Positions 6,001-15,000 of a DNA stretch of 19,825 nt are shown piece after piece (positions within the stretch are counted from its first letter, which is position 1; every line of letters begins with the position of its first letter). Source of the DNA: Chlamydiota bacterium (GTDB lineage Bacteria > Auribacterota > Tritonobacteria > UBA1439). A program made the position numbers. The DNA lies in the NCBI GenBank assembly GCA_037133055.1, contig JBAXOY010000053.1, forward strand, positions 1 to 19,825, in the 5' to 3' direction.

Positions 6001-9000
6001 GGACGTACATCCTCGAGGGCGGGGCGGTCGACGCGACGAAAACGACCTCGGTGAACAACCTGAAGTACGTCGGGACAGTGGACCGGGAGACCCTGATCGT
6101 GCAGTAACCCTTCGCGCCACTTGCACCACTCGCACCCCAGGGCAGACTCAAGTCTGCCCTGGGAGGGGAAGGGTAGACCGGGAGACACTGACCGTCCGGT
6201 AACCCTTCGCACCACTTGCACCACTCGCACCCCAGGGCAGACTTAAGTCTGCCCTGGGAGGGAGAAAAAGGTGGACCGGGAGACGCTGACGGTCCGGTAG
6301 AAATCCCAAATCCCGAACCCAAACAAAAGAGGACGGGCTTCAGTCCGCCGGCCTTTTGGGCCACTGCCCGCCGGCCTTCCGAAGGGATGGCGTGACGGCC
6401 CCCCTGTGAAACCGCCTGCGCGCAAGCGTAGCGGTGTTTGAGTTAATCCATTACGCGTGCTATGCTTTTTAGCAGGACCGTCGGGTGAAATGTGAGAAAA
6501 CAAGGTTTCTCCAGTATATAATGGCGAAGCATAACCACAACGCAGTACTCACTTCGGAGGATGGGATTATGAAGACACGACGTATCGCGGCGCATGCGCT
6601 TGCAGTGGGCGCGGCCCTCGCGGTGGCGATGAGCGTGTTCACGGGCACGGGCTATGCTTTGAATGCCGCGTCAGTGAAGGATATCTCGGCTCTTTCTCAA
6701 AGCCCCAAGATCCTTGCGAATAATTCGGCACTCGACGATTTCAAGAGCGGGGCGATAACGGCTCGCGTGATCGTGAATCTGCGCAAGCCGGCAAGGACGG
6801 CGGAGTCCCCCGATTTGGCGGATTTGGGTGTCAGGCGGAAGGCGCAGGAATCCGTGCAATCGACGCTGGACAGGGTTATCGGATCCCTGAATCCCGGCGA
6901 GATAAAAATCACCACCCGGTTTGTGTATATCTACGGATTCGCCGCCGAAGTGACGCTCGAGGGCCTTCAGGAATTGATCGGTAACAGTGATGTCGTTTCA
7001 ATTGAAAAGGTGCAGATCCTCTATCCCCAGCTGGCTCAGGGAATCCCCCTGATGAACGCCTCCACCGTGAGAAACACCTACAACGGGTCGGGCATTTCAA
7101 TCGCCATCTGCGACACGGGGATAGACTACACCCACCCGAGACTGGGGGGGGGCGGGTTTCCCAACAGCAAGGTGATCGGCGGCTATGATTGCGGCGAAAA
7201 CAAACCGGACCCCATGCCCAGACCGACTCAGAGTCACGGGACATGCTGCGCGGGGATTGCGGCGGGAGACCTCGGCACCGTAGGGGACTACATCGGCGGG
7301 GTCGCGTACAATGCCAAACTGTACGCGGTGAAGATTTCGAGGGCCGCGGGCGACGCGACCAATGAGGCGATGATAGCAGGGTGGGAGTGGTGCATCACGC
7401 ATCAAAATGACAATCCCGCCAACCCGATTAAAATCATCAGTACGAGTTTCGGCGGAGGGCGGCTTTTCAGCGCCTGTGACAGCGAGTCCCCCGCGATGAC
7501 CGCCGCCGCTAACAATGCGGTTGCGGCCGGCATCACGGTCTTCGCCGCTTCGGGCAACGACGGCTACTGCGATTCCATGGGCTGGCCGGCGTGCATTTCG
7601 AATGTCATATCCGTGGGGGCGGTGTACGACACAAACATTGGACGATCCCCCGCAGCGCCTTATGTGGGATGTATTCGAAATGGATCTTGCGTTGGGACCG
7701 CAGGTCCGCCCTGTGAAAAATGGTATATCGATTACACTACAAATGGAGATCAGGTTACTACCTATTCCAACAGCGCATCATTTTTGGGTGTCTTCGCTCC
7801 CAGTAATAACGCATACACGACTTCCATAGTCGGCGAAGGCTCTCCCCCCGGTTATGATCAGACCTTCGGAGGCACCTCGGCCGCCTGTCCCTATGCCGCC
7901 GGCGCCGCCGCGTGCCTGCAGAGCGCCGCGAAGTACCTCACCGGATCCTTCCTCACTCCCTCCCAGGTGAGATCGAAACTCATCGACACCGGCAATTTGA
8001 TCACGGACGGGAAAGTTGCGATAACCAAGCCGAGAGTCAATCTCGGCAATGCGATTGCCACTCTGCCGGTGCCGCCGATCAACCTCACGGCGAACAAGAC
8101 GACGTTCAACACGACCGATCAGATCGGGGTCTATGCCAACGTGGCTGCCGTCTCCACCCAGTGCTACCCGTTCATCCGGATCATCCAGCCGAACGGCCCG
8201 ACTCTCTACTTTGTGAACGGGGGGGAAATCAGCCCCACCGTGACGCCGTTTCTCGGTGAGGATGCGGGGCCGGTCACCGTGAATACGCCGAACCCCCTCT
8301 TCCCGATCGCAGCCATGCCGTTCAAGGGGATATCCACGGGGACGTACTACCTCGAGGGCGGGACGGTGGACGCGACGAAGACGACGTCGGTGGATAACCT
8401 GATCTACATCGGGACGGTGGACCGGGAGACGCTGACCGTAGTACCGTAAGCGATACCCGCAGCGTCGGGTGGTTATCCGCACACACAGGGGGGCCGCAAG
8501 GCCCCCCTGCTTTTTTCGGCTCCAGTCAGGATCAGGGCAGTCAGGGAGGGGGGACTGTCTATTGACTCCGCGCCTTCGATGGCTGACCCTGATGGTTCCC
8601 CGGCTTGCCGCCGTCATTCCCATGGTGTATTTTATAGGACGAGGATAAAATCAGGTTGCGGAGGAATGGCGGCTATGACTTTCACGTATTTTACCCGTGC
8701 GCTGCTCGCCCTCGCCGCGATTCTCCCCCCGTCCGCGGCATTTTCGCAGGGAATCGTCGTGGATCACGCCTGCACGGATCTGAGCCGGATACCGGATACG
8801 TGGATCGAGCAGGCGAAGACGCTCAAGCTCCACTACGCGCACACGTCTCATGGCAGCCAGCTCGTCACCGGGGCGCAAGTCCTCATGGGACAGGATTCGC
8901 GATTCAACGCCGCCATCCAGGGTCAAGGCCTGCCCTCGGTTCCCGGCTCCCTTTGCGTCTTCGACGGACAGGAGACGGATACCTATATCACCCCAGAGCT

Positions 9001-12000: not shown

Positions 12001-15000
12001 GAGTATTACCCGACGGCGCTCACCGCCCGGGGATACACGTTTACCGAGACCACCAACGTTCCTGATTTCTACACGGCCCTCACAGACGGAACGGAATGGG
12101 ACTTGGTGCTGGTGGATAATTATGACGGTTCTCTTGACGACGGCACGCTCGTTTCCCTCATGAACTACATCGGGAAGGGCGGCCGTTGTGTGCTGAATTA
12201 CTGGGATATGGACTGGGCGCTCGCGAACTTCCTCGGGGCGAATATGCGGCTCAATGATTACAACTACACAACTCCGCTTCCCGTAAAGCGGTGGGAACCG
12301 ACAAATCCCCTCCTCACCACGCCGAACCCCATCCCCGACCTGACGCCGGCAGGAGGGGATTCCCCCTCATCCGTCGACGGGTTCTATCTCCAGCCGAACG
12401 ATGACGCGACGGCGGTGGCCGGCTACACCCCGGCGGCCTCGGACTACCAGGCGGCGATCATCATAGGGAACGAGGAGCGGACGATCCTTCTCGGGATCAC
12501 CCCGGAGCTTTTCGGCCCCGACATGGAGAAACTGCTCGAGAACTGCATAGAGTACGTCCTGGCGCCTCCGCCCGCGCCGCTCAGCCTGACCCTCAACTCG
12601 CTCACGCCTGCGATCGGGAGTCCCTTCACCATCGACGTGGCGGTGCAGCCGATCACGCAGACCTTCGACGCGTGGGGCTGCATCTTCGGCCCCGGGGCCT
12701 CGGCGTACTCGTTCACGCTCGGCAACCCGACCGCGCTCCGAAGCGGCACCTCCCCGCTCGCCCAGAACATCCCGGGGCTCCCCGTCGCGTACAACACCCG
12801 CCTCCTCACTATGACGATCCCGCCCGGGGTCTCGGGGGTATACACGGTCGCCGTCGAACTCGTCCCGGCGGACCTCGACCCGGTCATCCCGATCAAGGGG
12901 TATGTGTCGGTGAAGACCGTGACGGTGCCGTAACCCGGGTTGGTGTTTCAACGGTTTGAGAAGCACGTAGGGGGGCCTCAAGCTTAAGGCCCCCCTACTG
13001 TTTTGAATATCTTTCTAATAATAATCCAAGGGCACACTTAAGTGTGCCCTTGGGCTGTGGATAAATTTTTAATGGCTTGCGCGCGAGACTGTTGCGCGTT
13101 TCGGATGCGCCCTATTCTCACCACCTGTCGGGCGTGATGTAGTCCCCGAACTTCACCCGGGCGTCCTCCAGCCGCCGCTTCTGCCCCTCGAGTATCTCGA
13201 AGAGCGCCGGCGGCGCATCCTTCACCTTCTCCCGGTAGATCTTTTCGATCCGCCCGATCTTCGCCAGGTTCTCCGGCACGCGGACGGTGAACTGCTCCCG
13301 GTAGGCGTCCGCGGAGTACTCCTCCCCGAGGACCTCGCGGAACAGCGCATGTAAATCCCCGTACTTCGGGATCAGGCCGGTGGACGTGCGAACCGCCTCG
13401 ACGCCCCCGTGGACGCGAAGCTCCATCCACTTGTACCAGACCCGCTTGTCCGTCTTCTTGTTGAGGAACTTCCCGTCCCTCCCCTTTATGAAATAATTCA
13501 CCGCGAAGATGCGGGGCGCGCGGGCGAGCCCACGGCTGAAATCCAGGTTCGCCTGCACGTACCTGCCGATGGGGATGGAGAGGAAATCGATGTTCGACAT
13601 CGGGTTGAATTCGCGCACCCCCTCCTTCCCGAGCGTGGCGGCGGTGGTCTCCGACTCGAGCGCCGCGCCCTTCGTGACGATCCCGTGCGTCCAGTCGAAC
13701 GTCTCCTCGACCGGCACGGAGGTGTCCGAGTCGCGCCCGCCGTAGACGATCGCCCCCACCGGGACGCCCGACGGGTCGTGGAGGGCCGGGTCGACATTTT
13801 CGAGCGATTCCAGGGCCAGGGTGAACCGCGCGTTCGGGTGCGAGGGGGGGATATCCTTCCCCGCCGCGTCCTTCTTCCCGGAATGCCACTCGCCCGAGTG
13901 GTTCGCTCCCGCGGGGGGGACGGGCCCGTCCTTGCCGATCCAGTACACGCCCCCGCCGGGGGTGGCGAGGACATTCGAGAAGATCACCTCGCCGGGGGAA
14001 TGCAGCGCCTTCCACTGGCTGGGGTCGTCCTTGGAGTTCACCCCCTGGATGATCCCGAACATGCCCTTCTCGACGTTGACCGCCCGCACCTCGCCGCCCT
14101 CTTTCCGGATGTAGGCGATGTCGTCGCCGACGATCGTCTCGCCCTCGAGCATCGCGGTCGAGGTCTTGCCGCAGAGCGACGGGAACGCCCCGAGGAAGAA
14201 TGTCTTCCTGCCGCCCGGCCCCCGGATGCCCATGACGAGCATGTGCTCCGTGAGCCACCCCTCCTCAGCCCCCCGGCGGATGGCCAGGCGCATGGCGAGT
14301 TTCTTGAGGCCGATCGTGTTGCCGCCGTACTGGGTGTTGACGCTGTAGACGGTGTCGTCCTCGACGTCGATATAGATGCGCCGATTATCGAGGTTGCGGC
14401 AGGTCTTCCTCTGGTCCACTTCCCCCTGGGAGTGCACGAATTTGAAAAACCGCGCCTTCTCCCCCTGACGCTCGAACTCCGCGTAGCCCGGGCGGTAGAG
14501 GATCGTCTCGCTGTGGGCGACGTAGCTCGAGTCGGTGATCTGCACGCAGGGGATGGCGAAACGCGAGCCGGCGGGGCCGAGGCAGAAGAAGCAGACGAAC
14601 GCCTCCTTGCCCTTCATGATGCCGCGGAGAATTCCCCGGATGTCCGTGAGCGCGGTCTCCCGCGGCTTCGTCTCGATCCCCTCGCCAAGGTCCACCCCCT
14701 CCGGCACCAGGATGCCGGTGTTCTTCTTGTCCCTCCCCTGATCGGCGTAGTTGTCGAAGTGGAGGGTGTGGCCCCCGACGGCAAGCCGCGTCTCCTCGCC
14801 GCTCCGGACGGCGGCCTCGCGGATATGCCAAAAATCCGCGGGCTCGTCCGCGCTCACGCACACTTTTGTCGGGTCGCAGAGCTGGAGAAATTCCGCGACG
14901 AATTTGTGCAGTGACCGGTTCGGAATCGCCGCGATCTTCCGGTACTGCTCTTCCCCCAATCTCTTCTTCAGTGATTCGTTCTCTTGCATGCCGATCTCCG

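What a model noticed while it worked through the whole genome (the two positions that open the first line are those of the whole stretch)
8675..12933. Family-restricted C-terminal beta-sandwich tag on ~58 secreted proteins (candidate new sorting/anchoring signal)
About 58 proteins of this genome (2% of all genes) end in the same ~115-aa domain that no Pfam or NCBIfam model recognises. They include subtilases, papain-, legumain-, gingipain-, thermolysin- and M28-type peptidases, lipases, glycoside hydrolases, PQQ-propellers, a 2994-aa TIG adhesin and a B12-riboswitch-controlled unknown. I read the domain as the recognition tag of a dedicated secretion or cell-surface attachment route, the counterpart of the T9SS CTD, PEP-CTERM or SLH systems, invented within one family of Auribacterota. 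It would define this lineage's secretome, point to an unknown sorting machine, and give a portable display tag.
Evidence so far: A two-round HMM built from the C-termini of g01381, g01607, g01609 and g01610 finds 58 proteins at E<1e-3 (best 3e-41). In 49 of them the domain ends within 20 aa of the C-terminus. 45 of 58 have a hydrophobic N-terminal leader, against 35% of all proteins. Example locus C53: g01604 (S8), g01605 (PQQ), g01606 (S8), g01607, g01609 and g01610 all carry it. Pfam and NCBIfam scans of three tags at E<=10 gave nothing but one chance row at E 0.06. AlphaFold2 of the tag (26-seq alignment) gives pLDDT 96.9 and a nine-strand sandwich. The best structural neighbours are generic Ig/FnIII-like domains: RbmA Z 9.2; dextranase, macroglobulin MG, CARDB, CBMs and Wzt-CBD Z 6.8-8.4; Foldseek finds nothing at [...]
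(Added by a program. Inside this text positions count along the whole contig: contig position 1 is position 1 of the stretch shown here. "Call 12" and the like, gene names such as g00115 and contig names such as C1 are that model's own, and its searches are not shown. The text may have been shortened before it was handed on; [...] marks where a part breaks off. The agent that wrote the report below was given it as the finding of a first reader that could run no searches.)

Follow-up and report, generated by a model that had tools for sequence, protein, structure and literature searches.

The report
RbmA-like enzyme tail with split-domain twin
Dozens of secreted enzymes of this uncultured bacterium end in a domain related to a cholera biofilm glue protein, probably to hold them near the cell, and their sister enzymes end instead in a short peptide that appears to snap into a separately encoded partner protein, a natural plug-and-socket pair that seems undescribed.

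Summary
The tail (T1) is real and commoner than reported: 82 proteins, 75 of 81 ending within 30 aa of the stop. It is not family-invented. It is expanded in Coatesbacteria-like genomes (42 to at least 150 matches) and Beggiatoaceae, and occurs in Zetaproteobacteria, Sulfuricella and Desulfobacterota. It is homologous to Vibrio RbmA's FnIII domain (top fold hit twice; sequence link through a bridge family, E 4e-10). It also occurs N-terminally, in tandem, and upstream of true T9SS signals. Best reading (0.55): a retained glycan/matrix tether, with export by the ordinary T2SS, rather than a T9SS-like export signal. No T1 partner was found.

Paralogues lacking T1 end in a 35-aa stub (T2, 28 proteins, never together with T1): the first strands of a YxiM-type domain. 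Each of five T2-rich genomes encodes one secreted 'catcher' that begins with the missing remainder, directly behind an anti-sigma-type gene ending in the same stub (model score 0.94 against control 0.16; a solved intact relative exists). The scan had noted the stub elsewhere in this genome without a partner, and an RbmA-like pre-CTD stalk in another genome. T1 is a new variant of a known kind; T2/catcher may be categorically new.

The parts
2..268 (+). 3' end of a cut gene: last 88 aa of a T1 tail
   Evidence: E 1e-18; bases 1-492 are 98% identical to 3902-4393
624..4169 (+). Secreted subtilase (S8), Pro/Thr linker, T1 tail at 3798-4166
4569..6107 (+). Secreted PQQ-type propeller, T1 tail at 5736-6104 (DNA 91% identical to the subtilase's tail region)
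6569..8449 (+). Secreted subtilase (S8, weak I9 propeptide), T1 tail at 8075-8440
8675..9955 (+). Secreted protein, 426 aa, cargo domain unassigned, Pro/Thr linker, T1 tail
   Evidence: (no Pfam or PDB match for the cargo)
9590..9952 (+). T1 tail: RbmA-type nine-strand Ig/FnIII-like sandwich that ends at the stop codon
10057..10572 (+). CobO/BtuR corrinoid adenosyltransferase; untagged bystander
10717..11757 (+). Secreted protein, 346 aa, unassigned cargo, T1 tail at 11404-11751
11896..12933 (+). Secreted paralogue of the previous gene (80% DNA identity), T1 tail at 12577-12927

Best explanation
T1 is a complete RbmA-type FnIII-like domain, appended (in about half of cases through a Pro/Thr linker) to Sec-exported enzymes and adhesins. 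After export by the ordinary type II system (inferred), it stays on the protein and tethers it to extracellular or surface polysaccharide (inferred from RbmA), keeping the digestive arsenal near the cell. It spreads by recombination of the tail-coding DNA onto new genes (shown by near-identical tails on unrelated cargo). The lineage has a second, interchangeable tail, T2, for the same cargo families. T2 is the first ~35 aa of a YxiM-type sandwich and completes its fold in trans with a single-copy secreted catcher that carries extra binding-type domains (genomic fit shown, binding modelled). The anti-sigma-type gene upstream of the catcher ends in a T2 stub, which suggests that catcher supply is sensed (inferred). 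Shown: counts, positions, distribution, homology, mutual exclusion, complementarity, co-occurrence. Inferred: export route, retention, ligand, regulation.
For: Homology: a broad T1 profile gives RbmA as top PDB sequence hit, both repeats (E 0.0028). RbmA is the top fold hit for two independent models (Z 9.6, rmsd 2.5, 97 aligned; Z 10.6, rmsd 2.4, 100 aligned). A bridge family hits only RbmA (E 4e-10) and aligns to T1 (hhalign 94.6% for G000 tails, 97.3% for the mixed set; 11% for an unrelated control). Isolated RbmA FnIII-2 binds VPS (PMC5605196, passages). Position is free: N-terminal after the signal peptide in 5 G000 proteins, 2-3 tandem copies, 5 internal copies. In 59 of 68 complete bridge-family ORFs a T9SS-type CTD follows; 8 of 8 tested pass TIGR04183, so there the domain is not the export signal. 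No membrane anchor follows the tail (2 of 70 have any TM). A gspD-M operon is present. Interchangeability: no protein has both tails; 12 of 25 T2 cargos have a T1-bearing paralogue; G008 has 39 T2 and no T1, while G003/G005/G006 have T1 and no T2. Catcher evidence.
Against: No ligand was tested, and a shared fold shows no function. In one search RbmA is tied within 1 Z with dextranase, complement MG and AlkC domains. The G000-only and foreign-only profiles do not reach RbmA by sequence. Terminal position is strong (68 of 81 within 5 aa), more than a binding module needs. The pre-CTD homologue may be a mere stalk. T1 is slightly acidic (median net charge -2), and I could not map RbmA's VPS patch onto it. 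That T2/catcher serves tethering rests on catcher domains that are unassigned in G000 (no Pfam). Only 10 of 21 T2 proteins pass my signal-peptide rule, against 31% background.
Confidence: 0.55

Rival explanations
1. T1 is an export-recognition tag, read by the T2SS or by a dedicated periplasmic adaptor.
For: Strongly terminal position and signal-peptide enrichment. A GspE-type ATPase is present in all 21 T1-bearing or motif-hit genomes tested besides G000. RbmA carries a type II secretion signal (PMC5605196, plasmid table). A T1 gene follows the pilMNOPQ-like operon on C24. The twin tail T2 does have a dedicated partner.
Against: GspE-type ATPases are equally present in the 10 T1-less genomes tested. 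No conserved neighbour emerged in 20 regions from 5 low-copy genomes (the middle of that output was cut from view). N-terminal, internal and tandem copies exist. The homologue lies before real T9SS CTDs.
Confidence: 0.2
2. T1 is a protein-protein docking module (self-association as in the RbmA dimer, or binding to hub proteins) that assembles enzyme complexes or a surface lattice.
For: RbmA FnIII domains pair in trans (PMC5605196). P0001 and P0005 carry five internal copies. Stand-alone signal+T1 proteins exist (C49:1862, C24:3268, C119:3065). Both cohesin proteins of G000 carry T1.
Against: G000 has no multi-copy hub and no dockerin. The tails diverge to 16-25% identity within one genome, which is hard to square with one shared interface.
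Confidence: 0.17
3. T1 is a structural cap or stalk without a specific ligand, multiplied by tail-copying recombination.
For: Tail DNA is copied nearly unchanged between unrelated genes (91-98%). The conserved residues (G, P, Y of turns and core) look structural. The bridge family occupies a stalk position.
Against: Independent expansions to 40-150 copies in unrelated lineages, and mutual exclusion with a second tail that has a dedicated partner, imply a selected role.
Confidence: 0.08

Closest known systems
Vibrio cholerae RbmA (PDB 4KKP, 4BE5), tandem FnIII matrix protein
   Same: Same fold and detectable sequence homology; secreted; tandem copies occur in some T1 carriers.
   Different: RbmA is a stand-alone two-domain scaffold. 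T1 is usually one copy fused behind an enzyme, in up to 150 matches per genome, with an extra hairpin. VPS binding and the D97/R234 switch were not tested in T1.
T9SS type A CTD (TIGR04183)
   Same: C-terminal all-beta module on many unrelated secreted hydrolases.
   Different: No sequence match, 115-120 aa instead of about 75, not strictly terminal, no CTD-bearing protein in G000; a T1 homologue precedes true CTDs elsewhere.
Cohesin-dockerin (cellulosome; recalled)
   Same: For T2/catcher: a short terminal tag on many enzymes docks onto a separately encoded protein that carries binding modules.
   Different: The tag is an unfolded fragment that completes the partner's fold. The catcher has one socket. 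The anti-sigma-type neighbour carries the same tag. No dockerin in G000.
SpyTag/SpyCatcher-type engineered pairs (PMC5487036, search listing only) and pilus donor-strand complementation (recalled)
   Same: A split beta-sandwich is rejoined by strand complementation.
   Different: T2/catcher is natural, two-gene, used on about 28 cargos; no isopeptide chemistry is evident; it is not a polymer.
YxiM N-terminal galactose-binding-like domain (PDB 2O14; PF21254)
   Same: The intact T2+remainder domain matches it (E 4e-5).
   Different: Known only as an intact domain; here it is split at a fixed point after the YGW motif.

Membership tests
T9SS type A CTD | Match to TIGR04183/PF18962 | tested here: not met
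   No hit in 67 own or 49 mixed members, while the same NCBIfam model scores 8 of 8 true CTDs
T9SS type A CTD | Always the last domain, single copy | tested here: not met
   6 of 81 lie more than 30 aa from the stop; tandem and internal copies
T9SS type A CTD | T9SS translocon (SprA) in the genome | tested here: inconclusive
   No PF14349 or TIGR04183 hit, but the controls were silent; a local model of 61 CTDs finds nothing at E<=10; genome 92% complete
T9SS type A CTD | Cleavage and lipid attachment by a sortase | not testable with these tools
   Needs proteomics
PEP-CTERM/exosortase class | Motif + TM helix + basic tail | tested here: not met
   All-beta model; 2 of 70 have any TM after the signal
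PEP-CTERM/exosortase class | Exosortase gene | tested here: not met
   No PF09721 match; the control rang in 1 of 14; genome 92% complete
SLH domain | Three helical ~55-aa repeats (PF00395) | tested here: not met
   No hit; beta-sandwich model
RbmA-type FnIII domain | Sequence homology | tested here: met
   Direct E 0.0028 with the mixed profile; via the bridge family E 4e-10 and hhalign 94.6%; narrower profiles do not reach it
RbmA-type FnIII domain | Fold | tested here: met
   Top of 48,161 chains twice; tied within 1 Z with other Ig-like domains
RbmA protein family | Stand-alone tandem two-domain architecture | tested here: not met
   All G000 carriers have one copy, mostly fused to cargo
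RbmA protein family | Exopolysaccharide binding; dimer with loop switch | not testable with these tools
   Needs binding assays; a homodimer was not modelled
Cohesin-dockerin system | Dockerin-bearing enzymes | tested here: not met
   No PF00404 in G000; the control rang in 2
YxiM-type galactose-binding-like domain (T2 + catcher) | Sequence match of the intact domain | tested here: met
   Profile of nine intact domains hits 2O14 at E 4e-5; PF21254 itself gives no hit in G000

The most novel reading that the evidence does not exclude
This lineage runs a natural two-gene tag/catcher system. About 28 secreted enzymes end in the first strands of a YxiM-type sandwich, which fold into a single secreted catcher that lacks exactly those strands and brings carbohydrate-binding-type domains. 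A membrane anti-sigma factor in the same operon displays a copy of the tag as bait, so cargo load titrates catcher and sets its expression. T1 is the in-cis, RbmA-like equivalent, and the two tails are swapped on paralogous enzymes as alternative addresses.
Probability: 0.6. Interest if true: 0.9.

Novelty: new variant of a known kind. Interest (0 to 1): 0.78.

Why it matters
T1 gives a profile that marks the secretomes of several uncultured lineages (up to 150 matches per genome). It also shows that RbmA's domain belongs to a large, uncatalogued, multi-phylum family, in which it is used as an enzyme tail. The T2/catcher pair, if binding is confirmed, would be a natural fold-complementation tag on unrelated enzymes, coupled to an ECF sigma circuit. 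It is testable now with a 35-aa peptide and a 120-aa domain, and could serve as a short orthogonal protein-assembly tag.

Tried and rejected
Family restriction: rejected.

Partner machine for T1: 20 regions of 8-20 kb around T1 genes in five low-copy genomes showed no conserved machinery (output partly cut, so I did not see L140-L143 in full). The neighbours of atypical G000 T1 genes were mostly housekeeping genes. GspE-type ATPases do not discriminate carriers from non-carriers (31 of 31). SprA and TIGR04183 searches were empty with silent controls. No dockerin and no exosortase.

Other dead ends: Foldseek gave only generic Ig rows (one at E<=0.001, a nanobody). The ESM Atlas gave unnamed clusters only. 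The plasmid search gave nothing. No B12 riboswitch. T1 and the T2-type domain are unrelated (hhalign 11%). T2 was not found in 14 foreign T1-bearing genomes. A T1 homodimer was not modelled, because the single complex job went to T2/catcher. Word-indexed homologue searches were capped at about 8000 candidates and give no range.

Literature: searches returned no paper; others returned papers whose listings show no description of either tail. The library lacks most subscription journals, and no supplements were read.
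Full report
1. Observation. I call it T1. An HMM iterated from three window tails found 74 ORFs in the genome at E<1e-3. 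Windowed and broader models gave 81, and the 2999-aa C24 protein, found by searching its C-terminus alone, makes 82. Of 81 with a complete 3' end, 68 end within 5 aa of the stop, 75 within 30 aa, and 6 further away. A Pro/Thr linker precedes T1 in 42 of 82. A crude signal-peptide rule passes 54 of 70 against 548 of 1765 other proteins, and 2 of 70 have a later TM segment. The cargo is as stated (Pfam on 74 of the 82). Pfam and NCBIfam do not recognise the domain. AF2 gives a nine-strand sandwich, pLDDT 96.7. No riboswitch was found. Tail DNA is copied between unrelated genes: window 3798-4266 (subtilase) and 5736-6201 (propeller) are 91% identical, and 1-492 and 3902-4393 are 98% identical.

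2. Distribution. Within the phylum T1 is confined to the family: 7 of 7 family genomes have 38-105 matches, and 0 of 33 others have any. Beyond it, the profile finds 2117 representative proteins at E<=0.001, and a foreign-type hit is named Candidatus Coatesbacteria. A motif scan of GTDB returned 25 loci. The HMM built from G000 tails alone matches 23 of them at E<1e-3 and one, cut by a contig end, at 0.004; a Rickettsiales locus is a chance hit. With the mixed profile A3, matches per genome were 42, 80, 123, 125, 131 and at least 150 in six Coatesbacteria-like genomes; 8, 34 and 45 in Beggiatoaceae; 12 in Sulfuricella; 7 in a zetaproteobacterium; and 5-10 in three Desulfobacterota. Two of the six are titled Coatesbacteria; I group the other four with them by sequence likeness. 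In samples, 5 of 301 genomes of Sulfuricella's phylum and 16 of 201 of the Desulfobacterota carry it; both counts include the centre genome. The domain is patchy, multi-phylum and repeatedly expanded.

3. What T1 is. RbmA of Vibrio cholerae is the top structural match for two independently predicted members (Z 9.6, rmsd 2.5, 97 aligned; Z 10.6, rmsd 2.4, 100 aligned, there tied within 1 Z with other Ig-like domains). The mixed profile finds RbmA as best PDB sequence hit, on both repeats (E 0.0028); the two narrower profiles do not. An earlier scan note (e1-4339749) reported an RbmA-like stalk in front of T9SS tags, which I tested. A metagenome motif scan gave 114 loci; the mixed T1 profile matched 82 of 115 motif-bearing ORFs at E<0.05 and 36 at E<1e-3. 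Among the first 80 loci, after dropping an unrelated NHL-like family, 59 of 68 complete ORFs end in a CTD-like tail, and 8 of 8 tested pass TIGR04183. A profile of 45 such stalk domains hits only RbmA in the PDB (E 4e-10) and aligns with G000 tails at 94.6% probability, against 11% for an unrelated control. T1 therefore belongs to an RbmA-type FnIII family. In passages of PMC5605196, isolated RbmA FnIII-2 binds VPS through an outer surface patch, and the FnIII domains pair in trans. PMC7898620 (passages) also describes glycan binding.

4. Sorting signal or tether. Against a T9SS-like signal: five G000 proteins carry T1 at or near the mature N-terminus with 100-600 aa behind it. Foreign proteins carry it N-terminally, internally or in 2-3 tandem copies, two proteins have five internal copies, and the homologue precedes true CTDs. 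G000 has no recognisable CTD, exosortase or dockerin. The SprA search was inconclusive. It has a gspD-M operon and a separate pilMNOPQ-like operon, but GspE-type ATPases occur in all 31 genomes tested, carriers or not. Neighbourhoods showed no T1 machinery. For a signal: the strong terminal bias. I rate a retained glycan/matrix tether at 0.55, an export tag at 0.2, a protein-docking module at 0.17 and an inert cap at 0.08.

5. The twin tail. I asked what paralogues of the cargo without T1 end in. Many end in a ~35-aa motif, T2 (NFQP...G...D.G...YGW). It occurs in 28 ORFs, 25 of them within 5 aa of the stop, and never with T1. Twelve of 25 T2 cargos have a T1-bearing paralogue at 32-56% identity. 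Only 10 of 21 pass my signal-peptide rule. T2 matches number 16-39 in five genomes (G000, G001, G002, G004, G008), one in four genomes, and none in 32 of 41; a few of these matches are intact domains. G008 has T2 without T1; G003, G005 and G006 have T1 without T2. In the single-match genomes the motif continues into an intact domain, whose profile matches the YxiM N-terminal domain (2O14, E 4e-5).

6. The catcher. A profile of the remainder of the intact domain finds exactly one G000 protein (E 5e-9; next 0.78): C34:12570-14006. It has a signal peptide, a mature N-terminus that begins just after the point where T2 stops, and two repeated unassigned domains. The remainder occurs in exactly the 9 of 41 genomes that have the T2 motif. 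In all five T2-rich genomes one secreted protein starts with the T2-less remainder, followed by repeats, intact copies of the domain, or Golvesin-like domains. All 12 top database homologues, some of them the same proteins, begin the same way. The gene directly upstream encodes an anti-sigma-type membrane protein (zf-HC2 by Pfam in G000, behind an ECF sigma gene). It ends in a T2 stub in G001, G004 and G008, and in a degenerate stub in G000 and G002. The complex model scored 0.94 against a best control of 0.16, with 100% contact agreement between runs and partner pLDDT 94. The mark was reached by 116 of 157 solved complexes and 2 of 215 mismatched pairs, counts that hold only roughly here. The NFQ strand pairs with the catcher's last strand and the YGW strand with its WEI strand. 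These are halves of a domain with a solved relative, so the pass may reflect likeness rather than binding. Mechanism (inferred): cargo T2 folds into the catcher, which lends it binding domains, and the anti-sigma's stub senses free catcher. An alternative is that the catcher is mainly the detached sensor of a split anti-sigma factor (as I recall for RsgI-type factors) which cargo tags titrate. In G000 the operon lies among glycosyltransferase genes.

7. Literature. PMC9324843 on Ace Lake Auribacterota has no occurrence of 'secreted', 'cohesin', 'dockerin', 'C-terminal' or 'type II secretion' in its main text (term search; supplements not read). Searches returned nothing. Searches were seen as listings only; PMC5487036 concerns engineered tag/catcher pairs. 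Dockerin, pilus and RsgI comparisons are recalled.

8. Verdict. Observation confirmed and extended; family invention refuted; dedicated export route unsupported. T1 is an uncatalogued, multi-phylum RbmA-type domain used as an enzyme tail, a new variant of a known kind. Its twin, T2 with catcher and anti-sigma bait, lies outside the window and may be categorically new (probability 0.6). Interest 0.78.

Noticed in passing
G000 C34:12570-15388 (L185, L186); G001 L194, G002 L192, G004 L193, G008 L195: ECF sigma, anti-sigma ending in a T2 stub, and secreted catcher starting with the complementary remainder of a YxiM-type domain.
   Followed up: yes
G000, 28 ORFs, e.g. C49:5057-6454, C2:24093-25313, C63:4992-6596 (L153-L172): Short C-terminal stub T2, mutually exclusive with T1 on paralogous cargo; weaker extra cases at C120:4072 and C99:3897.
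   Followed up: yes
window 1-492 and 3902-4393; 3798-4266 and 5736-6201: Tail-coding DNA plus its 3' flank is copied at 91-98% identity between neighbouring genes, including unrelated cargo.
   Followed up: partly
G000 C7:17193-18191 and C11:15232-16191: The genome's only two cohesin-domain proteins both carry T1, yet no dockerin was found.
   Followed up: partly
P0001, P0005: Large proteins (P0005 named Auribacterota) with five internal tandem T1 copies between PKD/TSP3 and Big domains; possible hubs; no counterpart in G000.
   Followed up: no
G000 C45:47-1765, C82:9718-11892, C4:18076-19251; second domain of P0078: Divergent T1 variants with long insertions; P0078 carries a typical and a variant copy in tandem.
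   Followed up: partly
G000 C24 (L075, L076): A pilMNOPQ-like operon is followed directly by a run of T1 genes, including the 2999-aa protein and a stand-alone signal+T1 protein.
   Followed up: partly
L203-L316 (metagenome loci): Large family of RbmA-like stalk domains just before T9SS type A CTDs; bridges T1 and RbmA by sequence.
   Followed up: yes
L138:8173-10062, L145:15938-17905, G000 C10:34555-36546: A related ~640-aa protein (CHASE2/cyclase-like by appearance, not scanned) lies near T1 genes in Desulfamplus and Sulfuricella, but not in G000.
   Followed up: no
window 8675-9565, 10717-11400, 11896-12575: Cargo domains of the three genes in the finding have no Pfam match; the first has no PDB match either.
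   Followed up: partly
L198, L199, L201 (G002, G001): Intact YxiM-type domain at the C-terminus of multi-TM glycosyltransferase-like membrane proteins.
   Followed up: no
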